From: Promethearchaeia archaeon
Lineage (GTDB): Archaea > Asgardarchaeota > Lokiarchaeia > Sigyniarchaeales > SOKP01
Assembly: GCA_029856155.1 (NCBI GenBank)
Contig: JAHQWL010000040.1
Location: 32,001-96,000 of the forward strand
Direction of reading: 5' to 3'
DNA length: 64,000 bases
Each line of letters opens with the position of its first letter. Position 1 is the first letter of the stretch. A model generated the notes under the pieces. The model was not told where the DNA came from, ran no database searches, and saw only the letters and a program-made list of their open reading frames with translations. Both the position numbers and the translations under genes were made by a program. Positions 40,792 through 51,226 of the stretch are shown one piece after another.

Positions 40792-43296
40792 ATGAGTAAA
40801 ACCAATGTAAATTATTCTGACCAAAAAAGGGAGACAAAATTCCCTATTGCTGAATCTCATGGTCTTTCTCCTCGATCTAAATGGCTTAGAGATTATTACT
40901 TTAGGGGACTAGAGCGAGAATGGAATAATCAATTTATGCCATTTACAACTGGAACAGATTGGGATATCGTGTTTCATGAGGGAGATTGGTATATTAATCC
41001 TGAAGTATATTACTATATCCAAGTATTAGGAAAAAATGATAAAGGTGTATTTGCATCATCATATAGATCAATGGCTATACCAGTTGAATTGCCAGATAAT
41101 TTTTGGGAATTATCTCTACCAGAACGTAGAGTCACCTTTCTCGAAAAAGTTATGCTTGATTATATTCCTCACGAAATTATTTCTGAAAATGATTTAATTG
41201 CAGGTGGGAGATTTAATACTCAATTAAGCAGATGCTTTAATGAGGAAGAAGCAAAAGAATATTGGAAGAAAAATGTAAGAAATAGAGAAGCTGTTTTTAA
41301 GTACCATAAATCTGGATTTGGAAATCTAGGAGCAGTTCCAGGTCATATTATACCTGATTATGAAACTGTAGTTAAAAAAGGATTTAAATATATCTATGAA
41401 AAAGCTCGCAAAACCTATGATGAACTTACAGAAGAGGAAAAAATTGGACCAAAAGGAGGAGAACTCAGAGCAATCATGACTGCAGCTAAAATTCCAAAGA
41501 AATTAGCAAAGAAATATGCTGAAGAGAGCCGAAGATTAAAAACTGAAACTAATAATCCTAAGAAAGCTGAAGAACTTGAACAAATGGCAATGAATTTAGA
41601 AAAAGTACCATGGGAGCCTGCTGAGACTTTTTGGCAAGGAGTTCAAACAGTTTGGCTAACTCATATGTTAGTAATGGCTGAAGAATCATACCCTGGAGCA
41701 GGCCTCTCTTTTGGTAGAATTGATCAGTATCTATGGGATTTATATAAAAAAGATGTTATTAAGCAAAAAACATTCAGTAAAGAATTTGCAAAAGACATAT
41801 TAAGCAGTTTCTGGTTTCATTGTAATACTGTGTATGATGCAATGATTAGAGTTGGTAATCAGGGATTATTATCAGGATTCGGTCAAATTATAACACTTTC
41901 TGGATGTGGTTCAAATGGAGATGATTTAACAAATGAACTTACTTACACTATGCTTGAAGTCATAGATTCATGGTATCCGAGTCTTGAGCCTAAACCTAAC
42001 GTAAGAATTCATAGAAATTCTCCAGAAAGACTTTTGGATATATTAATAGATATGATTGCGAGAGCTCAAGGAGCTCAATTCATTCTGAATTTTGACGAGA
42101 GAAGTATTGCTGGAATGGTTAAAGAAGGTATACCTAAAGAAGAAGCTTGGAATTATGGAGTAGTAGGTTGCCTAGAAAATACTATGCAAGGTAATGATAG
42201 AAGCGGAACTGTAAATTGCAATCCTAATTTATCTAAATCTATTGAATTAACATTATGGAATGGTAAAAATATGCCTAGAAATGATATTGTTACTAAACCT
42301 GGCGAACAAATCGGACCAGAAACAGGAAATCCTGAAGATTTTCAATCATGGGAAGAATTTTATAACGCTTGGAAAGGACAGGTTGAATTTATTATTAGAT
42401 ATACTGTGGATATAAATAATTTATGCGAAGAACTTCGAGGTGATTTTATTCGCACTCCATACCTATCTTCGATCGTTCGAGGATGTATAGAGCAAGGTTT
42501 AGATATTATAAATGGAGGTCCTGAATTGAGATTTATTACTGTTGAAGGAGTGGGATATGCTACGACAGTTGATTCATTACTATCAATTAAGAAGCTTGTA
42601 TATGAGGATAAAAAATACACAATAGCACAAATCAAAAATTCCATTATGAATGACTTTAAAGGAAACGAGGTAATGCAAACTTACTTAATGAATAAAGCTC
42701 CTAAATATGGGAATGATGAAGATGATGTTGATGAATTTTCTAAAATGGTAATGGAAACATGGGCTGAAGAATGTTGGAAATATAAAACACCAACCAACTA
42801 TCAATATCGTCCAGGAATGTTATCATGGAACTACTGGGCTGGAGCAGACGCTAGTTATACAATAGCAACACCAAATGGACGGAATAAGGGATCATTTCTA
42901 TCAAATGCAATCTGTCCTACCAATGGAGCTGATAAAAAAGGGCCTACAGCAGTTACTAATTCTATTGGTAAAGTATTAGGAGGAAAAACTGAATCTGGAG
43001 AATACCTTAATTATTTACCCAATGGAGCAAGCCATACAATTACTTTTAATCCGTCTATAATTAAAGATCCAGAACATAAAGAGAAATTTAAAGCTTATTT
43101 ACGAGGATACATTGAAAATGGAGGGACTTCGTTACAAGTTAATATGCTTGATGCTGAAATGTTGAAGGACGCTCAAAAACATCCCGAAAATTATAAGAAT
43201 CTTTTAGTTAGAGTAACGGGTTATAATGCATATTTCACCACCATAGGTAGAGAATTACAGGATGAGATAATTGCAAGAGAATCTCATAGAATTTAG
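40792..43296 (+). CDS. Glycyl radical enzyme (PFL2-like)
   Basis: GRIDQY, GCLEN (single Cys), RVTGY. Confidence 0.92.
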   Translation: MSKTNVNYSDQKRETKFPIAESHGLSPRSKWLRDYYFRGLEREWNNQFMPFTTGTDWDIVFHEGDWYINPEVYYYIQVLGKNDKGVFASSYRSMAIPVELPDNFWELSLPERRVTFLEKVMLDYIPHEIISENDLIAGGRFNTQLSRCFNEEEAKEYWKKNVRNREAVFKYHKSGFGNLGAVPGHIIPDYETVVKKGFKYIYEKARKTYDELTEEEKIGPKGGELRAIMTAAKIPKKLAKKYAEESRRLKTETNNPKKAEELEQMAMNLEKVPWEPAETFWQGVQTVWLTHMLVMAEESYPGAGLSFGRIDQYLWDLYKKDVIKQKTFSKEFAKDILSSFWFHCNTVYDAMIRVGNQGLLSGFGQIITLSGCGSNGDDLTNELTYTMLEVIDSWYPSLEPKPNVRIHRNSPERLLDILIDMIARAQGAQFILNFDERSIAGMVKEGIPKEEAWNYGVVGCLENTMQGNDRSGTVNCNPNLSKSIELTLWNGKNMPRNDIVTKPGEQIGPETGNPEDFQSWEEFYNAWKGQVEFIIRYTVDINNLCEELRGDFIRTPYLSSIVRGCIEQGLDIINGGPELRFITVEGVGYATTVDSLLSIKKLVYEDKKYTIAQIKNSIMNDFKGNEVMQTYLMNKAPKYGNDEDDVDEFSKMVMETWAEECWKYKTPTNYQYRPGMLSWNYWAGADASYTIATPNGRNKGSFLSNAICPTNGADKKGPTAVTNSIGKVLGGKTESGEYLNYLPNGASHTITFNPSIIKDPEHKEKFKAYLRGYIENGGTSLQVNMLDAEMLKDAQKHPENYKNLLVRVTGYNAYFTTIGRELQDEIIARESHRI

Positions 43297-43350
43297 TAAT
43301 TTTTATTTATTTTCCAATTATTATTAAAACTAAAGAAAAAATTTAAGATT

Positions 43351-44352
43351 ATGGCATTATCTGAAGCTTTAATCTTCCAAATTCAGAAATTTTCAACTGA
43401 AGATGGTCCAGGAATCAGAACAACTGTGTTTTTTAAACATTGTCCATTAAAATGCATATGGTGCCATAATCCTGAATCTATACTTAAAATTCCTCAACTT
43501 GAATGGTTTAAACATAAATGTATTGGATGTAATACATGCATAGAAACATGCCAACAAAAAGCATTATCATTTTACAAAAATGGCCTGAATATTGATAGAA
43601 AAAAATGTAATGGATGCGGAGAGTGTGTAGAGGAATGTCCTTCTACGGCATTAAATATGCTAGGTAAATTGTGGAATTTAGAGGATCTCTACTATGAGAT
43701 AGAAAAAGATAAGATTTATTATACTAAATCAAATGGAGGAATAACGGTTTCTGGTGGTGAACCTACCCAACAACCTGATTTTATAACTAATTTTTTGAAA
43801 AAATGTAAAGATAATGGAATACATACTGCTATAGACACATGTGGATATGCATCCAAAATTGTTTATGAACGTATTCTACCTTATGTCGATTTAGTACTTT
43901 TAGATATAAAGCATATAGATTCAGATAAGCATAAAGAGTATACTGGTGTTCCTAATGAAGTAATATTAGAAAATGCCATTTGGATTTCTAATTATTTAAA
44001 AGAAAATGATAAAAAAATGTGGATCAGAACTCCAATTATCCCCCATTATACAGCTACTGATGAAAATGTTAAAGAAATCGGAGAATTCATTGTAAATAGA
44101 TTAGATAATTTTCCTGAAAGATGGGATCTTCTTTCTTTTAATAATCTTTGTAGCTCAAAATATGAAAGATTAGATATGGAATGGTCCTTAAAGGATGAGC
44201 CATTAATGAAAAAAGAAGATATGGAACATTTTCTTAGAATTGCAGAAAGTACAGGTGTTCAAAACTCATGTTGGTCAGGATTGACAAAGAGGTCGGAGGA
44301 TGATGACACTAATACCAATAAAAGTAAAAAATCAACAACACCGTCTTGTTGA
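43351..44352 (+). CDS. Glycyl-radical activating enzyme
   Basis: DGPGIRT, CPLKCIWCHNPE, two ferredoxin motifs, SGGEP. Confidence 0.93.
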   Translation: MALSEALIFQIQKFSTEDGPGIRTTVFFKHCPLKCIWCHNPESILKIPQLEWFKHKCIGCNTCIETCQQKALSFYKNGLNIDRKKCNGCGECVEECPSTALNMLGKLWNLEDLYYEIEKDKIYYTKSNGGITVSGGEPTQQPDFITNFLKKCKDNGIHTAIDTCGYASKIVYERILPYVDLVLLDIKHIDSDKHKEYTGVPNEVILENAIWISNYLKENDKKMWIRTPIIPHYTATDENVKEIGEFIVNRLDNFPERWDLLSFNNLCSSKYERLDMEWSLKDEPLMKKEDMEHFLRIAESTGVQNSCWSGLTKRSEDDDTNTNKSKKSTTPSC

Positions 44353-44397: not shown

Positions 44398-45276
44398 ATG
44401 AGTGAAGATAATAGTAAATTTGGTTGGGATTCTGAATTTTCAGATAATCTTATTGCATTTACTCAACCAGAAATAATGGTAAAATTAGTTTCTACAATAG
44501 ATTCAAGGGGTTGGCCCCATATTACAATTATTACATCAAATCGGGCGAAAAGCAGAGATCAAATAGTATGGGGTCAATTTTTTGCAGGTACGAGTAAAGA
44601 AAATGTGCAAAAAAATCCAAAACAAGGAATTTTTTATATGACTCCGGAAGCTCCATTTAAGTTCATTCAAGTTAAAGCTGATTTTACCCATACTAAAAAA
44701 GAAGGTGAAGACCTTGAATATTTCAATCAATTAGATTTTTTCCGATATTTAACTTATATTAATGTTTATAAAGTTTTTTATAACGATCTTGTTGCTGTAA
44801 CCCATATTAGAGATTTGCCACCTGGTAGTATCCCAAGAAAAATTTTTAAAGCTATTATTAAAGAAGCAAAAACTAATCTAGAAGAAAAAAGACTAAATGT
44901 TATAGGGTATAAGCTATTTACAGATAAAATAGGTATAAGAGCGATAGCATATATCGATCCCTCTGATGGGTATCCCGTAGTTATTCCGCATCTTCAACTA
45001 AATGCTGTTGATCACAATAGACTCTATTTCCCATTGACAGCATTAAAAGAGGATTTTTTAAAGATTCCTGTTAATTCAAAAGTTGCTGTAATTGCCGCTA
45101 ATTTCGATATGGCTAGCCAAGTAGTGAAAGGAACCTTTACAGGTATTCAATCAGTTGAAGATATCGAATATGGATTAATAGATATTGAAGAGATTTATAA
45201 TAGTTCTCCACCTATAGTTGGTAAAATTTATCCTGAAATTGAAACAAGACCTAAGGTAAATAAATTTACTCTTTAA
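44398..45276 (+). CDS. Tandem pyridoxamine-phosphate-oxidase-like (split barrel) protein
   Basis: STIDSRGWPHIT..SKENVQKNP, with a second repeat AYIDPSDGYPVV. Confidence 0.65.
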   Translation: MSEDNSKFGWDSEFSDNLIAFTQPEIMVKLVSTIDSRGWPHITIITSNRAKSRDQIVWGQFFAGTSKENVQKNPKQGIFYMTPEAPFKFIQVKADFTHTKKEGEDLEYFNQLDFFRYLTYINVYKVFYNDLVAVTHIRDLPPGSIPRKIFKAIIKEAKTNLEEKRLNVIGYKLFTDKIGIRAIAYIDPSDGYPVVIPHLQLNAVDHNRLYFPLTALKEDFLKIPVNSKVAVIAANFDMASQVVKGTFTGIQSVEDIEYGLIDIEEIYNSSPPIVGKIYPEIETRPKVNKFTL

Positions 45277-45347
45277 ATTTTTTCTTTAGAGAAGAATCTT
45301 AAAAAGATCAAAGAAAAATAATAATATAATCTTATTAACGGATCAAA

Positions 45348-46046
45348 ATGTTTAACTATAAAGATTTTGGGCTAAAAGAAGGTAATCTATATGAAATTAT
45401 AGCCACCACTTATTCTATAGCAAAAAATGGTATGGAAATTAAACCCAATGCTTCTTGTATGGGCATTAGAATGATAGAAGGAGAGCAAATACAAATATCT
45501 CCTTTCTACAGTACTAGTACTTATAAAAATTTGAAGGAGTATAATACAATTGCAATCAATTTTGTTGATGATGTATATTTATTTGCTCTAGCTGCATTAA
45601 AAGAAGCAGAGTCTCCTATTGATTTAACAGAATTTCCCTTAAAATATTATGGTTTTAAAAATATAGAATCTCGTGCTATGGATATGCCATACATAAAAAA
45701 AGCATGGGGAATTCTAATAGGCGAAGCTTCACAAGAATTTCAAAAAACCAAAACCGATAATCTAGGAGAAGTAGTTATACCTATATTTAAATTAGATGTC
45801 ATTTTTACTGAAAAACTTCAAGAAACTCATAAATTGTTTAATAGAGCTGAAAATTTAGCGCTAGAAGCAATAATTCTAACAACTCGCTTGAAGATTGCCA
45901 GAGAAAATCAAAACCAAGCTCTATTTTCTAAGATAAATGAAAAAATAGAAGGATTAATAGAAAATATTGAAAGATTTGGATATAATAAAAGAGCATTAAA
46001 AACTATTAAATTAGTAAAGAACTATATAAATAAATTATTGATTTAA
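45348..46046 (+). CDS. DUF447 family protein
   Basis: YE.IATT, PNA..MG, TY.NL, FNRA..LA.EA.I..TR. Confidence 0.8.
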   Translation: MFNYKDFGLKEGNLYEIIATTYSIAKNGMEIKPNASCMGIRMIEGEQIQISPFYSTSTYKNLKEYNTIAINFVDDVYLFALAALKEAESPIDLTEFPLKYYGFKNIESRAMDMPYIKKAWGILIGEASQEFQKTKTDNLGEVVIPIFKLDVIFTEKLQETHKLFNRAENLALEAIILTTRLKIARENQNQALFSKINEKIEGLIENIERFGYNKRALKTIKLVKNYINKLLI

Positions 46047-46438
46047 TCCTTATTTTGAATTTTTTCAATAAACATTAAAGGATATTCCAATTCATCAACC
46101 CATTCTACTTTTGCTACTACGTGTATAGATTCATATTCAATATTTATTTCTGCTTGTATTATTCTGCCTGTAATCTCATCATAATCAAATTCTGACTGTT
46201 TTTTCCCTAAAACTTTTTCCCTATCTAAATGAATTTTTACAGATTTAACATAAGGTTGGCATGAAATTGCTGATTCAATACCTCTTTCTATCGAATTAAT
46301 TATATTTTCATCACTTTGAATAGGAATTCCACATAGAATATGATATAACGCCCCTAATTTGATACCAGTTTCAAAACAAGCTCTTTCTCTATCACTTAGA
46401 TCAGATGAAAAATAAATTTTATTATTAGTTTTGGGCAT
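46043..46438 (-). CDS. mptD: Archaeal dihydroneopterin aldolase (MptD/DUF372)
   Basis: ERACFE.GIKLGALYH..G.P, QPYV, YPLM. Confidence 0.88.
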   Translation of the reverse strand: MPKTNNKIYFSSDLSDRERACFETGIKLGALYHILCGIPIQSDENIINSIERGIESAISCQPYVKSVKIHLDREKVLGKKQSEFDYDEITGRIIQAEINIEYESIHVVAKVEWVDELEYPLMFIEKIQNKD

Positions 46439-46444
46439 TTATAA

Positions 46445-47455
46445 TCAATCTATAAATTCTATTTTTGCACCTATATTATTAGGTTTACATATATAGATAT
46501 GTCCTCCACTATTTTTCTGATTCTTTTGGACGTCTCTTAATAAAATTTCTGCTTCTGAGTCAGATTCTACAACCCCAACAACACTAGGTCCAAAAGATGA
46601 CATACCGTATGCCTTTAATCCATACTCTTCAAAAAATTTTAAAAGATCTTTGACAATTTCGTGTTGCAAATCAATTTCGATTTTTTTAAATCCAATATTC
46701 TGAATTCTTTTTAATCCTTCTCCAAAACAATATAAATCATTTTTTATAATCCCGGGAATAACCTTCATAATAATTTGGTGAGAAACTTCATTTACTTCAT
46801 CTCTAGGAACTGGTGCATAATTTTGAAAAACACTAACTTCTTCATCTCCATATGCTCCTTTCTTTACATTAGGAATTACTAAGACGAACCTCCAATTTTC
46901 AGGTATATTATACGCAAAAATTGTTAATGCTGGGTTTGCTGAAATTGAAGCGGATGATGGTAAAAAAGTTTCCTTTTCTTTTCCTTTCCCAAAATCGTGT
47001 CCTCCATCTAATATAAAACCTCCTGTTTCAAAACCTCTCCACCCGATTCCAGAGGTACCTCCTCTTTCTACTATTTTTGTTAAATCACTAGTAGTTAAAT
47101 GAGAATAGTTCTTCAATTTCGTTATGGCGGTAGCTATAGCTAAGGATAATTGCGTCTTTGAGCCCAATCCTACGTGGGATGGAAAATATCTTTTAAGATT
47201 GAAGTGAAAGTTTTTATTACTAATATTAAATATTTTAAATACTTTTGAAGCTATTTCATTAATAACTTCAATTGATTCTCGATAATACTTATGAGCTTCA
47301 ATTTTAAATTCTTTAGCACTATTAGACGCTTCAAAAACTACGTTAGGTCGGTCTAACATAAGTCCAATACCGCCGTCTACCCTACCCGTATATCCATTTT
47401 CATCGATTAAAGAAAGATGTATCCGACAAGGCGTAGTTATTCTAAGAGATGTCAT
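46445..47455 (-). CDS. mptG: Beta-ribofuranosylaminobenzene 5'-phosphate synthase (GHMP kinase fold)
   Basis: P.RIH..LID, GRVDGG.G, HVGLGS.TQ, RGGTSGIG, GGFILDGG, GMSSFGP. Confidence 0.9.
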   Translation of the reverse strand: MTSLRITTPCRIHLSLIDENGYTGRVDGGIGLMLDRPNVVFEASNSAKEFKIEAHKYYRESIEVINEIASKVFKIFNISNKNFHFNLKRYFPSHVGLGSKTQLSLAIATAITKLKNYSHLTTSDLTKIVERGGTSGIGWRGFETGGFILDGGHDFGKGKEKETFLPSSASISANPALTIFAYNIPENWRFVLVIPNVKKGAYGDEEVSVFQNYAPVPRDEVNEVSHQIIMKVIPGIIKNDLYCFGEGLKRIQNIGFKKIEIDLQHEIVKDLLKFFEEYGLKAYGMSSFGPSVVGVVESDSEAEILLRDVQKNQKNSGGHIYICKPNNIGAKIEFID

Positions 47456-47571
47456 ATTAGTCTTTTTTAAAAAAACGAATTCTCAACTATAAATAAGAAT
47501 TTTCAAAATAATTTAAATATATGATAAACTTTAATTCAGAGTTTTTAGAGATTTAGAAGGATTTGAGCAAT

Positions 47572-47685
47572 TTGAGCGATTTAGAAGGATTGACTAGGAA
47601 TTTAATAAAAAAAGAATATTCTGAACTAGAAATTCTTCCAAGATTTTTATATCAAAAATTAAAAATACAAAACAATAAAAATTGA
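47572..47685 (+). pseudogene. Truncated, diverged copy of the 5' end of the AIR-synthase-like gene
   Basis: TTG-started MSDLEGLTRNLIKKEYSELEILPR vs MSDLEGLTRRLMEKGFRKEEIILR at 48980 (14/24 identical), then degenerates and stops. Confidence 0.7.
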
Positions 47686-47727: not shown

Positions 47728-48858
47728 ATGTATGATGTTGTAATTAGTGGAGCTGGTCCATCTGGTTCACATTGTGCTAGAATTATTGCTGAAGCGGGAT
47801 TTAAGGTAGCTTTATTAAAAAAAAATACATAATGGCGAAAACCTTGTGGAGGTTCAGTGTCCTCTGAAATTCTTGCACTATATCCCGAAATAGAAAACTT
47901 AAACATTGCAAAAATCACCGGCACAAAGATTTATTCTGCAAATCTTCATAGTCTCGAACAGAGGCGTACGGATAATTTATATTCTGTAATTGTTGATAGG
48001 TTAGATTTCGATGATTTAATAAGGAACATTGCTGTAGATAAGGGAGCTGAATTATTTGATAAGAATTTATCATATGATTTTGTAATAAAAGAAGGAAAAA
48101 GAATAGGAGTAAAGACAAAAACGCCAGAAGAGATTAAAGAGTATTATGGAAAAATTATTATTCTTGCTGATGGAATGAGTTCAAAATTAGCTATAAAATC
48201 AGGATTGCGTTCAAAATGGGAGCTTAAAGATATCATTGTTAGCAAATGTGCTATAATGGAAGGAGAAAATAAGTTAGATTATAATTTAGGTTATGTTTTT
48301 TTTCAAAGCTATATGGGATATGGTTGGATTTTCCCATTGGGTAAAAAAAGATTCAATATTGGTTGTGGTTCACCTGCTGAGATTGCGTTAAAAGTTAATT
48401 TAAACAAGATGTTTGGTAATTTTATTAATGATCAATACATAAAGACCCATTATCTTACTTCTGATTATAAAACTATTTGGTCAGGATCATATCCACTTGC
48501 TAGAAATGGAATTTTAGAAAAATGTTTGTTCTCTGATAATCTATTGTGTATTGGTGATGTTGCCGGCTTCGTCTCACCTATAACGGGTGAGGGAATTCAT
48601 CAATCTATGCATTCTGCAAAAGCAGCAGCTGAAGTAGCTGTGAATGCTTTGGAAAAGGAAGATTATTCTAAAGATACTCTAAAAGCATATAGAAACCATC
48701 CAGATGTTAAAAATTTAAGAAGAGTTTTTAAATCACTTTTACGTTTAAGAGATTTTTTCTTTGAAGAGAATGGAAAAAATCTAAATGAAATGCTAGAAAG
48801 AGCAGAAAATGACCCCGAATATAGAGAAAAAGCTTTGAATATATTTTTTGCAAAATAA
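47728..48858 (+). pseudogene. Geranylgeranyl-reductase-family flavoprotein with in-frame TAA at 47830-47832
   Basis: MYDVVISGAGPSGS...ALLKKNT*WRKPCGG continues in frame into the 47857 ORF (DRLDFD, ADG, YGWIFP, GDVAG.VSP.TGEGI). Confidence 0.8.
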
Positions 48859-48979
48859 GAATGAAATAAAAGAGATTTCTCTTTTAAAAAAAAATAGATT
48901 TCATGGGGAAATATATTTTATAATCTCTTTATTTAATATAAATTAATATTGATTGATTTATATACAAAAGGTTTTCTTT

Positions 48980-50392
48980 TTGAGTGATTTAGAAGGTTTA
49001 ACTAGAAGGTTAATGGAAAAGGGTTTTAGAAAGGAAGAAATTATTTTACGGCTTGTTAAGGAATATATGGATTTTAAAGACATTAAACAAGAGTCCGCAA
49101 CTCTTCTTGCTGAAGCGATTTATGAAGAATGTAAAAAGAGTGATATTAGGATTGTTTCAGATCCCTTTATGAGATATTTATTAGATATTAATAAGTCAAA
49201 TGTGACCATTGGAAAACAAGGAGTGGGTTGTAGGGGGTCAGGCGACTTTTTTGTTCATAAGCTCATTGCAGAGCTATCTGAAACAGAGAAGAGAGCATAC
49301 TTATCACCTAGCTCTTTAGATGATGCTGGTGCTGTGAGAATTAGTGATATTGAAGGTTTTAAAGCAGAAGATGATTTAATCATTGTATCTAAAATGGAAG
49401 GAATTCATAGTCGCTTAAGCGACTTTCCATTCTTGTGTGGTTTTCACGTAATTTCATGCAATACATTTGCGTGAAGCGTATCGAGAGCCGCACTACGAGA
49501 TCTCTATGTCAAAGGAGCAAAACCAATTTCCATTATGGTTGATGTTCATTTAGGAGATGATGCTGATGTTGGTAAACTCTTAGATTTTATGGCAGGAATT
49601 TCCACAATTGCAGAACTTACTGATGTACCTATAACGGCAGGCTCAACTTTAAGAATTGGAGGTGATATGGTTATTGGAAATAGACTTGTAGGAGGGATTG
49701 GGGCCGTTGGTATTGCTGAGGGTAAACTATTTGCTCGAAGGAATATAAAAAAAGGAGATAAAATACTTATGACTGAAGGTGCAGGAGGTGGAACAATCAC
49801 AACCACTGCAATTTATTCAGGAAACCATCATGTTGTTAAAGAAACGTTGAATATTAAATTTCTTGAAGCTTGCAAAGTAATCTTAAATTCAAATTATATA
49901 AATGAAATTCATGCAATGTGCGATGTGACGAACGGAGGGCTCAGAGGAGATCTCTATGAGATTAATTATGAAGCTAAATGTGGAGTAACAATTTATGAAC
50001 AAGAAGTAAGAAAACTTGTAAATCCGATTGTTCTTGAATTACTTGAAAAAGTATCGGTTGATTATTTAGGGGTTTCTTTAGACGCACTGCTAATTTATTG
50101 TTCTGAGGATGTTTCCAATAAAATAATTTCAGATTTAAGAGAAAATGGTATAAAATGTTCTGAAATTGGGTATGTTGATGATTCGAACCAAATAAAAATG
50201 ATTTTTGCGAAAGATAAACAAGAAAATATTTTGCCTCGATTTCGGGAATCAGCTTACACCAAAATAAAACAAGAAATAGGAGAACAAGCACCAGAATCTA
50301 AAGAAGAAATGGAAAATGATATACAAGTGACTGCTTCAAATGCGATAAAGAAACGAAATAAGATAATAAAATATATAAAAAGTCAAAACTAA
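48980..50392 (+). CDS. AIR synthase/PurM-like (selenophosphate synthetase-related) protein, spliced: exons 48980-49451 and 49482-50392, ~460 aa
   Basis: GVGCRGSGDF, LDDAG, EGIHSRLSDFPF, RAALRD, GSTLRIGGDMV, GAGGGT, MCDVTNGG; the two ORF-track pieces are in the same frame and separated by one UGA inside a BHB-bounded insert. Confidence 0.85.
49452..49481 (+). other. Candidate 30-nt archaeal bulge-helix-bulge intron in an mRNA
   Basis: 11-bp exon stem (49435-45/49483-93), 4-bp helix ACGU/GCGU (49446-49/49476-79), 3-nt bulges AAU (49450-52) and AUC (49480-82), 9-bp intron stem (49453-61/49467-75). Confidence 0.85.
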
Positions 50393-50398
50393 AGCTAA

Positions 50399-51226
50399 TT
50401 ATAAATCTAAATTGAGAACTTGATTCATAGAACCCGAGCGAAATCCTGCTAGATCTACCGTAACATAAATAAATCCAAGATTTCTTAACTTTTCTCTAAT
50501 TTTTTTCATATTTTGTTCAGTTAAGACTTTTGGGAGATCGCTTTGTAGAAATTCAATTCTCCCTAAATTGTTCTCATGTAATCTGACTCTCAACTGCTTT
50601 AAGTTGAATTTATTTTTTAGGAACCTCTCCGCTTCTCTTATCATCATTAATTTTTCTTCATTTATAATTTGCCCATATGGAATTCGAGAAGAGAAGCATG
50701 CCATTGATGGTTTAGATTGAACATATAAATTATAAAATCTGCAAATCTCTCTTATCTCATTCTTATTAATTTTGAAATCAATATATGGTGTAGATATTTT
50801 TAGCTCTTCTAGGGCTTGCATTCCAGGCCTATAATCCGAAAGATCATCAATGTTTGAACCATCTAATATTATATCAAAATGTTTTTTGTTTTTTATTTCA
50901 AGGATATCATTATATAATACAGTTTTACAAATATAGCATCTATTTGAAGGATTACATTGGAATTCTTCGTTTTTTAAGGGATCTCGTTCAAGGATCATAT
51001 GATTTATATCATAATTATTAGCAAATTGTATGGCCTCATTGATTTCTTCTTCAGGATAAAGAACTGAACTTTCAGTTATAAGAAGAGTGTCTCTAGCATA
51101 TTTTTTTGAGAGAAAGGCTAAAAGGGAACTATCAACACCCCCAGAAAAAGCTACTATTACCTTTTTTCCTTCCAAAAAAGATATGATATTCTTTAACTTT
51201 TTTTCTATTATATTAGGCAAATCCAT
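50399..51226 (-). CDS. larE: ATP-dependent sacrificial sulfur transferase LarE family
   Basis: PP-loop AFSGGVDS, RCYICK, DGSN.DD..DYRPG, ACFSSRIPYG, RVRLH, GFRSGSMN. Confidence 0.9.
   Translation of the reverse strand: MDLPNIIEKKLKNIISFLEGKKVIVAFSGGVDSSLLAFLSKKYARDTLLITESSVLYPEEEINEAIQFANNYDINHMILERDPLKNEEFQCNPSNRCYICKTVLYNDILEIKNKKHFDIILDGSNIDDLSDYRPGMQALEELKISTPYIDFKINKNEIREICRFYNLYVQSKPSMACFSSRIPYGQIINEEKLMMIREAERFLKNKFNLKQLRVRLHENNLGRIEFLQSDLPKVLTEQNMKKIREKLRNLGFIYVTVDLAGFRSGSMNQVLNLDL

What the first reader, a model, noticed from the sequence alone, without database searches (positions are those of the whole stretch)
49435..49493. Canonical bulge-helix-bulge intron inside a protein-coding gene (candidate spliced mRNA in an Asgard archaeon)
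Seen in sequence: the two ORF-track pieces (48953-49474, 49535-50392) are one frame reading ...FPFLCGFHV-ISCNTFA*SV-SRAALRDLYVKGA. The RNA folds as an 11-bp exon stem GUGUGGUUUUC(49435-45)/GAGAGCCGCAC(49483-93), a 4-bp central helix ACGU(49446-49)/GCGU(49476-79), two 3-nt bulges on opposite strands (AAU 49450-52, AUC 49480-82) and a 9-bp intron stem UUCAUGCAA/UUGCGUGAA closing a UACAU loop. Established: archaeal EndA cuts after the 2nd nucleotide of each bulge and RtcB ligates the exons. Applying that rule removes 49452-49481 (30 nt, frame-preserving, includes the UGA) and creates CAC GTA ACG AGA GCC GCA CTA CGA GAT = H-V-T-R-A-A-L-R-D. As I recall, that matches the intron-less family motif (GFHV.RAALRD). 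The Thr codon exists only after splicing. mRNA introns in archaea are well established essentially for crenarchaeal cbf5. Inference: the tRNA-splicing machinery controls expression of a metabolic enzyme here; unspliced mRNA would give a 164-aa truncation. This parallels HAC1/XBP1-type non-spliceosomal splicing in a lineage close to eukaryotes.
Basis: partly seen in the sequence, partly recalled or inferred. Interest (0 to 1): 0.96.

Follow-up and report, generated by a model that had tools for sequence, protein, structure and literature searches.

The report
tRNA-type mini-intron in Asgard enzyme gene
A 30-base insert with a stop codon splits a conserved enzyme gene of a Loki-type (Promethearchaeota) Asgard archaeon; it has the exact RNA shape that the tRNA-splicing enzymes cut, so the mRNA almost certainly has to be spliced, which papers show inside a coding sequence for only one other archaeal gene (cbf5).

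Summary
Window 49435-49493 folds, as the minimum-energy structure, into a strict helix-bulge-helix-bulge-helix motif (z = -5.6). Cutting after the second base of each bulge removes 49452-49481 and gives GFHVTRAALRD. That matches about 460-aa intron-less homologs, which lack exactly these 10 codons.

In 28 related genomes I found the same insert at the same site. Twenty are 30 nt and eight are 29 nt, so the latter shift the frame. The stems covary, and the exon helix is kept only where the insert is present. dN/dS is 0.10-0.17 in both exons. The genome encodes two EndA paralogs (one with the catalytic His, one without) and RtcB. I checked a second intron of this kind in an unrelated gene of the same genome.

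No RNA data cover the locus, so splicing itself is inferred.

New here: the window's gene is a mosaic. Exon 1 plus the intron belongs to an allele shared across three genera. Exon 2 is of the resident genus. A relic of the old exon 1 sits at the ancestral position (47563-47685).

This scan had already found and followed up the same orthologous intron, and many like it, on other Asgard DNA.

The parts
48980..49451 (+). Exon 1 of the AIR-synthase-related (PurM-superfamily) gene. It starts at TTG 48980 (LSDLEGL..., read as M) and ends with GTA A.
   Evidence: Homologs start MSDLEGL/LSDLEGL. Pfam AIRS N-domain. dN/dS 0.12-0.17. This half is 85-96% nt identical to intron-bearing alleles of other genera and 58-79% to same-genus intron-less alleles.
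49452..49481 (+). 30-nt BHB intron with an in-frame TGA at 49472-74.
   Evidence: Homologs lack exactly these 30 nt. There are 29- and 30-nt orthologous versions in 28 other genomes.
49482..50392 (+). Exon 2, from CG AGA GCC... to the stop TAA at 50390-92. The spliced product is 460 aa.
   Evidence: Pfam AIRS_C. dN/dS 0.10-0.15 downstream of the stop or frameshift. From about +330 nt it is closest to same-genus intron-less alleles.
49435..49445 (+). 5' strand of the outer exon-exon helix. It pairs with 49483-49493.
   Evidence: Intron-bearing genes keep 10.4-10.8 of 11 pairs; intron-less genes have 5.5 of 11.
49446..49449 (+). 5' strand of the 4-bp central helix (ACGU). It pairs with GCGU at 49476-49479.
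   Evidence: 98.3% of cells are paired, and one C-G to U-A compensatory change occurs in L001.
49450..49452 (+). 5' bulge AAU. The predicted cut is between 49451 and 49452.
   Evidence: Geometry. The cut rule, between the 2nd and 3rd bulge residue, is stated for cbf5 in PMC2738675.
49453..49475 (+). Intron hairpin: a 9-bp stem (49453-61 with 49467-75) and the loop UACAU.
   Evidence: Six of 9 pairs show changes on both sides across 29 sequences.
49480..49482 (+). 3' bulge AUC. The predicted cut is between 49481 and 49482.
   Evidence: C49482 is invariant because it is the second base of the Thr codon.
49483..49493 (+). 3' strand of the outer helix (GAGAGCCGCAC).
   Evidence: The Arg codon here is AGR in 29 of 29 intron-bearing genes and CGN in 43 of 59 intron-less genes.
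47563..47685 (+). Relic of the resident, intron-less-type exon 1 (SDLEGLTRNLIKK.YSE..IL, about 25 codons, then drift). It lies about 115-120 nt from the start of the divergent GHMP-kinase-like gene, the ancestral position.
   Evidence: The spacing in intron-less genomes is 114-126 nt in 18 of 27. Longer relics at the same place occur in G083, G001 and G072.
47728..48858 (+). Cargo between the relic and the working gene: a geranylgeranyl-reductase-like FAD oxidoreductase ORF with an in-frame TAA at 47830-32. It is probably decaying.
   Evidence: Relatives' copies are only about 55% identical and have no stop, and an intact paralog lies elsewhere in the genome. This ORF is not upstream of the gene in the other intron-bearing genomes checked.

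Best explanation
Window 49452-49481 is a 30-nt archaeal bulge-helix-bulge intron inside the only copy of a conserved 460-aa PurM-superfamily ('AIR-synthase-related') gene of a Promethearchaeota (Lokiarchaeia-type Asgard) genome.

In the pre-mRNA the two exon ends pair into an 11-bp helix. A 4-bp helix flanked by two 3-nt bulges on opposite strands follows, and the intron closes with a 9-bp hairpin. The splicing endonuclease cuts after the second base of each bulge. The genome has a His-bearing and a His-lacking EndA paralog, which is the (alpha-beta)2 pattern published for Asgard archaea. RtcB then joins the exons. This creates the Thr codon A|CG and restores GFHVTRAALRD, which contains the Asp of the conserved PurM-family motif. 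Unspliced RNA can only give a 164-aa fragment.

Shown here: the structure, its conservation and covariation, the exact 30-nt gap in homologs, frame-shifting 29-nt versions, selection on both exons, and the enzyme genes. Inferred: the cleavage and ligation themselves, and that splicing is constitutive.

A second layer is moderately supported. In this genome, exon 1 plus the intron arrived by recombination as a foreign allele that circulates among at least three genera. The resident exon 1 was left behind as a relic.
For: - Fold: the MFE structure equals the strict hBHBh' motif, z = -5.59.
- Homologs: 15 intron-less homologs of about 448-465 aa have a gap of exactly 10 codons, GFH----------VTRA(C/A)LRD. 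A sixteenth hit (P0009) carries the same insert, with its TGA read as W.
- Distribution: 29 orthologous inserts, all in one family. Twenty-one are 30 nt and eight are 29 nt; the 29-nt ones put the two halves in different frames.
- Covariation: 95.9% of pair cells are paired, 8 pairs change on both sides, 0 of 500 shuffles reach this, and slid controls give 30-53%.
- Exon helix: 10.4-10.8 of 11 pairs with the intron against 5.5 of 11 without. Arg is AGR in 29 of 29 against CGN in 43 of 59.
- Selection: dN/dS is 0.10-0.17 in exon 1 and exon 2, including a pair with 29-nt introns. In the 17 codons between the junction and the next ATG, Leu and Arg change synonymously in the spliced frame.
- Junction: every intron-less allele reads GTN ACN. 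Only the predicted cut sites give GTA ACG.
- Enzymes: two EndA-family genes, of which one has the catalytic His and the other lacks it, plus one RtcB. Asgard (alpha-beta)2 EndA with the L1 loop is reported in PMC5829648.
- Same mechanism elsewhere in the genome: a 30-nt BHB insert at G000:C98:57026-57055 restores DKHSTGGVPGNK in an AMP/thymidine-phosphorylase-family gene.
- Mosaic. Relics and upstream insertions.
Against: - No read, cDNA or peptide shows the spliced junction. No RNA run is listed for this locus, and the two junction searches in metagenome contigs found only multi-gene DNA contigs of intron-less alleles.
- Two of 29 orthologs have an A.G mismatch at the outer end of the central helix.
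- My crude genome-wide structure-plus-ORF scan did not separate real introns from AT-rich background hairpins. I cannot say from my own data how many such introns the genome holds.
- For the mosaic layer, no integrase or endonuclease was found in the cargo, and the breakpoint is only bracketed between about +25 and +330 nt.
Confidence: 0.9

Rival explanations
1. Programmed translational bypass, as in T4 gene 60. The ribosome takes off at GUA (Val, 49448-50) and lands on the GUA at 49478-80, skipping 30 nt (29 nt in the shorter versions). It resumes at UCG AGA, giving GFHV-S-RAALRD.
For: A GUA lies at both places in the window and in most orthologs. A hop would restore the frame for both the 29- and the 30-nt versions. 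A stop codon and a hairpin follow the take-off site.
Against: Two of 29 orthologs have no GUA at the landing site (GCGGAUCG in G071 and G054), and one takes off from GUU. The product would carry Ser where 14 of the 15 intron-less homologs aligned have Thr (the other has Ala). A hop does not need an 11-bp exon-exon helix, a 4-bp helix or two 3-nt bulges, yet all are kept by covariation and by synonymous choices. The second intron in this genome has no matching codons at its ends.
Confidence: 0.02
2. The insert is translated. UGA is read as selenocysteine or read through, giving a lineage-specific 10-aa loop.
For: In 21 genomes the insert is 30 nt and in frame. One gene caller read the TGA as W and reported a 474-aa protein (P0009).
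Against: Eight orthologs have a 29-nt insert that shifts the frame. The insert's variation follows RNA pairing, not codons. Some versions carry TAA or two stops.
Confidence: 0.005
3. The gene is dead or split. Either it is a pseudogene or assembly error, or two separate polypeptides (164 aa, and 285 aa from ATG 49535) work together without splicing.
For: Two ORFs are what gene callers see. A relic and a stop-bearing neighbour show that the region has been rearranged.
Against: The insert is present in 29 independent assemblies. An independent Logan contig of the best-holding run bridges it. It is the only copy of a gene found in 119 of 135 genomes of the family. dN/dS is 0.10-0.17 on both sides. 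The 17 codons between the junction and ATG 49535 include the invariant R, A, L, R, D, L, Y, V, K, G and stay conserved in the spliced frame with synonymous changes. They would be untranslated in a split protein.
Confidence: 0.02
4. The 30 nt are a recombination scar (an att-like joint) left where the foreign exon 1 was joined to the resident exon 2. They only happen to look like a BHB motif.
For: The insert lies within about 30 nt of the point where the foreign-type sequence ends. Relics in G083 and G001 end 21-27 nt after the junction.
Against: A scar would not keep a strict 3-4-3 geometry through compensatory changes in 29 genomes. It would not explain why the gene stays under selection. Genomes with the intron-bearing gene at the ancestral spot and no relic (G062, G066) carry the same insert. 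A scar would still have to be removed from the RNA, so this is a statement about origin, not an alternative to splicing.
Confidence: 0.03

Closest known systems
BHB intron in the cbf5 (pseudouridine synthase) pre-mRNA of Crenarchaeota (Desulfurococcales, Sulfolobales; Watanabe 2002, Yoshinari 2006, Yokobori 2009 = PMC2738675)
   Same: It lies inside a coding sequence and interrupts a conserved catalytic region. The cut is predicted between the 2nd and 3rd bulge residues. The hosts have a hetero-oligomeric EndA. Presence is patchy among relatives.
   Different: The gene is different (a PurM-superfamily enzyme of unknown substrate) and so is the phylum (Asgard). Here the motif is strict hBHBh', whereas most cbf5 motifs are relaxed. 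The intron is only 29-30 nt. It travels with exon 1 between genera. cbf5 splicing was shown by cDNA and in vitro; this one has no RNA evidence.
HVO_1309 mRNA intron of Haloferax volcanii (Schwarz 2020 = PMC7714728; reviewed in PMC10485636)
   Same: It is an EndA substrate in an mRNA. The review counts it with cbf5 as the two archaeal genes known to be spliced this way and expects more.
   Different: The host has an alpha2 EndA. It does not rebuild a codon.
BHB introns of Asgard tRNA genes (PMC11291895; bioRxiv 10.64898/2026.10.13.758758)
   Same: The motif, the expected enzymes and a similar size range are shared. This genome's tRNA genes are also heavily interrupted: aragorn calls only 23 tRNAs, 11 of them with introns, several of 31-33 nt.
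   Different: Those papers describe tRNA genes only. Neither mentions introns in coding genes.
HAC1/XBP1 unconventional splicing (IRE1 cut, tRNA ligase/RtcB joining) in eukaryotes
   Same: It is non-spliceosomal. A protein endonuclease cuts at stem-loops in an mRNA, ligation is of the RtcB type in metazoans, and the reading frame downstream changes.
   Different: The endonuclease is IRE1, not EndA/TSEN, and the event is a regulated stress switch. Nothing here shows regulation. The resemblance is in the way it works, not in descent.
Intron or intein homing with co-conversion of flanking exons, and integrating elements that carry a replacement for the gene end they displace
   Same: The intron is inherited together with flanking exon sequence across species boundaries. 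A displaced copy of the resident gene end remains beside variable cargo.
   Different: A 30-nt intron encodes no endonuclease. No integrase or homing endonuclease was found nearby. The co-transferred tract is one-sided: all of exon 1 but only about 30 nt of exon 2.

Membership tests
Archaeal BHB (EndA/RtcB-dependent) intron in a pre-mRNA | [quoted passage not shown] | tested here: met
   The MFE and centroid structures equal this motif, z = -5.59.
Archaeal BHB (EndA/RtcB-dependent) intron in a pre-mRNA | Cutting between the 2nd and 3rd bulge residues yields an in-frame junction that matches intron-less homologs | tested here: met
   Removing 49452-49481 gives GFHVTRAALRD. Homologs have an exact 10-codon gap and read GTN ACN at the junction. 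The rule is stated in PMC2738675.
Archaeal BHB (EndA/RtcB-dependent) intron in a pre-mRNA | The structure, not the sequence, is conserved among orthologs (covariation) | tested here: met
   Across 29 sequences, 95.9% of cells are paired, 8 pairs change on both sides, and 0 of 500 shuffles reach this.
Archaeal BHB (EndA/RtcB-dependent) intron in a pre-mRNA | The host encodes the splicing endonuclease and an RNA 3'-P ligase | tested here: met
   PF01974 matches at G000:C13 (198 aa, with His) and G000:C52 (202 aa, without). PF01139 RtcB matches at G000:C83.
Archaeal BHB (EndA/RtcB-dependent) intron in a pre-mRNA | The spliced RNA (exon-exon junction) or the excised or circular intron is observed | not testable with these tools
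   No RNA holder is listed for the locus. Only DNA contigs could be laid on it.
Archaeal BHB (EndA/RtcB-dependent) intron in a pre-mRNA | Purified EndA cleaves at the predicted sites | not testable with these tools
   This is a bench experiment.
Selenoprotein / UGA recoding | An in-frame UGA within a translated, frame-preserving conserved segment | tested here: not met
   Eight of 29 orthologs have a 29-nt insert that shifts the frame.
Programmed translational bypass (gene 60 type) | Matched take-off and landing codons in all members, and a product consistent with homologs | tested here: not met
   Two of 29 lack the landing GUA. The product would have Ser where homologs have Thr.
Mobile (homing) intron | An intron-encoded or adjacent homing endonuclease | tested here: not met
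   The intron is 30 nt and has no ORF. Cargo ORFs have no nuclease or integrase Pfam match.
Mobile (homing) intron | Co-inheritance of the intron with flanking exon sequence across lineages | tested here: met
   Exon 1 is 85-96% identical among intron-bearing alleles of three genera, against 58-79% to same-genus intron-less alleles. Exon 2 shows the reverse.
PurM superfamily (AIR-synthase-related protein) | AIRS N- and C-terminal domains | tested here: met
   PF00586 at 4e-08 and PF02769 at 1.6e-14. It falls far below the cut-offs of ThiL, SelD, HypE and PurL. The nearest solved structure is HypE at only E = 2e-5.

The most novel reading that the evidence does not exclude
The mini-intron is not a passive passenger. 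It is part of a cassette (promoter, exon 1, intron and about 25 nt of exon 2) that moves between Promethearchaeota genera and inserts into the resident gene just after the junction. The cassette displaces the old exon 1 and brings variable cargo. The intron, and the exon helix that must match it, would then mark and protect the incoming allele, for example by breaking a recombination or nuclease target. If so, BHB introns in coding genes would spread by a homing-like route without encoding any enzyme. That would give a mechanism for intron gain in the closest archaeal relatives of eukaryotes.
Probability: 0.2. Interest if true: 0.9.

Novelty: new member of a known kind. Interest (0 to 1): 0.74.

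Why it matters
In the papers I could search, endonuclease-type splicing of an archaeal coding sequence is documented only for cbf5 in Crenarchaeota. One Haloferax mRNA (HVO_1309) is also known to be spliced, and a 2023 review says more cases 'remain to be discovered'.

This locus is a clean case in an Asgard archaeon, backed by unusually strong comparative support. A conserved enzyme can be made only if the tRNA-splicing machinery processes its mRNA.

With the second intron I verified in the same genome, and the many unverified notes of this scan, it points to routine mRNA splicing by tRNA enzymes in the lineage nearest to eukaryotes. It also gives a concrete system for asking how such introns are gained: an allele pair with and without the intron, insertion relics, and 29- and 30-nt variants.

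In practice, gene callers split or mistranslate these genes. One database entry reads the TGA as Trp.

Tried and rejected
- RNA evidence: no RNA holder is listed for this locus.
- Laying four DNA runs: only the best-holding run, possibly the sample the window was assembled from, bridges the insert. This adds no independent support.
- Spliced-junction search in metagenome contigs: the 26-mer pattern found nothing. The 17-mer found 66 places, of which only two (L197, L200) are this gene. Both are long multi-gene DNA contigs of intron-less alleles, not cDNA.
- Genome-wide BHB scans of my own (strict, relaxed and long-stem geometry, each with an ORF-merging test): counts under the true cut rule equalled those under shifted mock rules (216 against 177-213; 9 against 9-11). 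The test has no power in this AT-rich genome. It recovered this intron as the best hit and the AMP-phosphorylase-family intron.
- blastn-short of the intron against its own genome: only 11-14-nt chance-level matches, so there is no sign of a repeated intron family by sequence.
- The covariance model R1 found the intron only in family f1. It found none in the 25 genomes sampled from six other families of the class, which is a small sample.
- I first read L040/L041 (intron-less, GTG ACG AGR GCN) as recent precise intron losses. I withdrew this after the exon-1 tree showed that their exon 1 is of the resident type. They may never have had the intron.
- Folding around the in-frame TAA of the neighbouring reductase-like ORF showed no BHB (z = 0.14).
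- Pfam on cargo ORFs gave no integrase or nuclease.
- Function of the host protein: no family-level assignment beyond the PurM superfamily.
Full report
**1. The observation**

Folded alone, window 49425-49503 gives as both MFE and centroid the following structure:
- an 11-bp outer helix (49435-45 with 49483-93);
- a 4-bp central helix (49446-49 with 49476-79);
- two 3-nt bulges on opposite strands (49450-52 and 49480-82);
- a 9-bp inner stem closing a 5-nt loop.

The energy is -30.6 kcal/mol, against -15.4 +/- 2.7 for 200 dinucleotide shuffles (z = -5.59, no shuffle as good).

The 5' bulge lies on the far side of the central helix from the exon helix. The 3' bulge lies next to the exon helix. 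This is the arrangement of archaeal tRNA introns at position 37/38 (my knowledge of the motif).

The two ORFs 48953-49474 and 49535-50392 are in one frame and are separated by TGA 49472-74.

**2. The insert is absent from homologs, to the base**

Read through, the gene is an AIR-synthase-related protein with PF00586 and PF02769. Thousands of relatives of about 460 aa exist, the best of them in Promethearchaeota/Asgard MAGs.

I aligned 16 relatives. Fifteen have a gap of exactly 10 residues: GFH----------VTRA(C/A)LRDLYVKG. The sixteenth, P0009, carries the same insert, with its TGA read as W by a gene caller.

Cutting after the second base of each bulge removes 49452-49481. PMC2738675 states this rule for cbf5. 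The cut joins GTA A|CG AGA, giving H-V-T-R-A-A-L-R-D. All intron-less alleles read GTN ACN here. Shifting either cut by one base gives a different sequence, so the junction is unambiguous.

With the TTG start at 48980 (homologs begin M/LSDLEGL) the spliced product is 460 aa and the unspliced one is 164 aa.

**3. Orthologous inserts**

A six-frame search of 135 genomes of the same family found the gene in 119. Many had an internal TGA or were split at the same residue. Extracting the junction from all fetched loci gave 29 insert-bearing genes including the window's: 21 of 30 nt and 8 of 29 nt. About 60 were distinct intron-less genes.

The 29-nt versions occur in three genera. They arose in two ways: a loop deletion in G062, and a shortened stem in the g6 and g11 genera. 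They put exon 2 in a different frame from exon 1, which excludes any reading in which the insert is translated.

A covariance model built on the 29 sequences found the element once per genome in 27 of 126 sampled genomes of the family, the window's own aside. It found none in 25 genomes of six other families of the class. Two further weak 41-nt matches, in G116 and G133, are probably intron-less junctions that I did not check.

**4. Structure under selection**

On the 29-sequence alignment:
- 95.9% of pair cells are standard pairs.
- Eight pairs have changes on both sides, six of them among the nine in the intron stem.
- No shuffle out of 500 reaches the observed values.
- Sliding the partner strand by 1-3 columns drops pairing to 30-53%.

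The exon-exon helix is kept at 10.4-10.8 of 11 pairs in insert-bearing genes. In intron-less genes the same positions pair at only 5.5 of 11. The Arg codon after the junction is AGA or AGG in 29 of 29 with the insert and CGN in 43 of 59 without. Synonymous sites of the exons are therefore constrained only when the insert is present.

**5. The gene is alive**

It is the only full copy in the genome. Pairwise dN/dS between insert-bearing genes is 0.12-0.17 in exon 1 and 0.10-0.15 in exon 2, including a pair with 29-nt inserts.

The codons between the junction and the next ATG (RAALRDLYVKGAKPISI) hold invariant residues of the family. Leu and Arg there vary synonymously in the spliced frame. This argues against both a pseudogene and a two-polypeptide enzyme.

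**6. Machinery and context**

The genome has two EndA-family ORFs. One (198 aa) carries the His of the catalytic triad, and the other (202 aa) lacks it. This fits the (alpha-beta)2 enzyme with broad specificity reported for Asgard archaea (PMC5829648). It also has one RtcB.

aragorn recognises only 23 tRNA genes, 11 of them with introns. This agrees with published reports of heavily interrupted Asgard tRNA genes.

I verified one more coding-gene intron in this genome. G000:C98:57026-57055 is 30 nt and has a 4-bp helix, 3-nt bulges and a 9-bp stem, but no exon helix. It splits an AMP/thymidine-phosphorylase-family gene, and its removal rebuilds DKHSTGGVPGNK. Earlier notes of this scan list many more in this genome. 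I did not check those.

**7. Rivals**

- *Ribosomal hop.* A hop from GUA 49448 to GUA 49478 would also restore the frame in both length classes. It would give Ser where homologs have Thr. Two of 29 orthologs lack the landing codon. A hop does not explain the strict 3-4-3 geometry or the exon helix, and it cannot apply to the second intron.
- *Selenocysteine or read-through.* Excluded by the 29-nt versions.
- *Assembly error.* Excluded by 29 independent assemblies.

**8. What is missing**

No RNA run is listed for the locus. The splicing event itself is therefore inferred, and nothing bears on whether it is regulated.

**9. A mosaic gene**

An earlier agent, working on the same orthologous intron in another genome, reported that the intron spreads with the front half of the gene (e1-5505163). 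I tested this on the window.

*Identity along the gene.* Exon 1 of the window's gene is 85-92% nt identical to exon 1 of insert-bearing genes from three genera, whose exon 2 is only 70-75% identical to the window's. The nearest exon 2 sequences (78-86%) belong mostly to intron-less genes of the window's own genus, whose exon 1 is only 67-73% identical. In 45-nt sliding windows, the foreign-type signal (0.85-0.96 against 0.58-0.79) runs from the start codon to about 30 nt past the junction. The two are equal up to about +320. From +330 the resident type wins, 0.82-0.93 against 0.6-0.8.

*Trees.* On separate DNA trees, with the 12-15 nt next to the junction left out, insert presence needs 7 changes on exon 1 and 20 on exon 2. 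Thirteen insert-bearing genes form an all-intron clade on exon 1, with moderate support (68). ML distances reverse between the halves: window to G126 is 0.15 against 1.09, and window to G041 is 0.81 against 0.30.

*Relics.* In intron-less genomes the gene starts 114-126 nt from a divergent GHMP-kinase-like gene in 18 of 27 cases, and never more than 891 nt away. In the window that position holds a 25-codon relic of a resident-type exon 1 (47563-47685). A reductase-like ORF with an in-frame TAA follows, and only then the working gene.

Longer relics sit at the same place in three other genomes, each with different cargo:
- G083: an intact 165-codon resident-type exon 1 ending GFHVTRACLRDLP*.
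- G001: 93% identical to exon 1 of an intron-less contig that also shares its exon 2.
- G072.

Twelve of 18 insert-bearing genomes have more than 1.3 kb between the two genes.

*Interpretation.* The simplest reading is that exon 1, the intron and about 25 nt of exon 2 enter as foreign DNA. Sometimes this happens by clean replacement (G062 and G066 have the normal spacing). Sometimes it happens by an insertion just after the junction that leaves the old exon 1 behind. No integrase or nuclease was found, so the mechanism is open. Because related genomes are not independent samples, the counts overstate the number of events.

**10. Comparison with what is known, and verdict**

The case meets every sequence-level criterion of an EndA-type pre-mRNA intron. 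The RNA-level and enzyme-level criteria could not be tested.

It is a new member of the kind defined by cbf5: a new gene, a new phylum, a strict motif, a very small size and an unusual mode of spread.

This scan has already followed up the same orthologous intron in at least three other genomes, and similar introns in many genes. In the searchable literature I found nothing on coding-gene BHB introns in Asgard archaea.

Noticed in passing
window 47563-47685: A short ORF repeats the first ~25 residues of the AIR-synthase-related protein in its intron-less form (SDLEGLTRNLIKK.YSE..IL). It lies about 115-120 nt from the divergent GHMP-kinase-like gene, where intact intron-less genes start. I read it as a relic of the displaced resident exon 1.
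   Followed up: yes
window 47728-48858 (TAA at 47830-47832): A geranylgeranyl-reductase-like FAD oxidoreductase ORF has a single in-frame TAA at codon 35, just after an A9 run. No BHB fold is present (z = 0.14). Relatives' copies are only ~55% identical and uninterrupted, and an intact paralog is at G000:C52:61900-63021. It is probably decaying cargo, or a sequencing error at the homopolymer.
   Followed up: partly
G000:C98:57026-57055 (L157:727-756): A second 30-nt BHB intron in this genome, in an AMP/thymidine-phosphorylase-family gene, carries an in-frame TAG. Removing it rebuilds DKHSTGGVPGNK. It has no exon-exon helix, so it would need a broad-specificity EndA.
   Followed up: yes
window 49394-49430: Exon 1 holds a perfect 16-nt palindrome AGTCGCTTAAGCGACT (49409-24) flanked by ATGGAA/TTCCAT, directly upstream of the BHB. 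Another first-reader note flags it. In L001 the palindrome is not perfect. It was not tested for conservation.
   Followed up: no
window 44398-47455: The neighbours are an archaeal-type dihydroneopterin aldolase (PF04038), a GHMP-kinase-like protein, a DUF447 protein and a PNPOx-like protein. This set hints at pterin (methanopterin-type) cofactor synthesis. The host gene also converges on a PP-loop ATPase (LarE/QueC-like, 50399-51226). This is a hint only for the function of the PurM-like enzyme.
   Followed up: no
G000 whole genome: aragorn recognises only 23 tRNA genes in a 97%-complete 4.1-Mb genome, 11 of them with introns (9-529 nt). Many tRNA genes are probably too interrupted to be called.
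   Followed up: no
L230:1506-3296 (G001): The cargo between the relic and the working gene in G001 is a 596-aa ORF built of about five repeats (HQ.DIEDIV..KGGKII...W.Y.GKN...PYF.IEC...W). It has no Pfam match.
   Followed up: partly
L197 (Ga0209986_10001509) and L200 (WOR8_10010837): These are intron-less alleles on long DNA contigs whose junction reads GTAACGAGRGC, the same as the predicted spliced product of intron-bearing genes. L197 shares exon 1 with G001's relic (93%) and exon 2 with G001's working gene (90%). It is either the pre-insertion state or a precise loss; I could not tell which.
   Followed up: partly
window 40792-44352: A glycyl-radical enzyme (834 aa, pyruvate formate-lyase-like) sits beside a radical-SAM activase with ferredoxin-type Cys clusters. 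I judged this from the sequence only.
   Followed up: no
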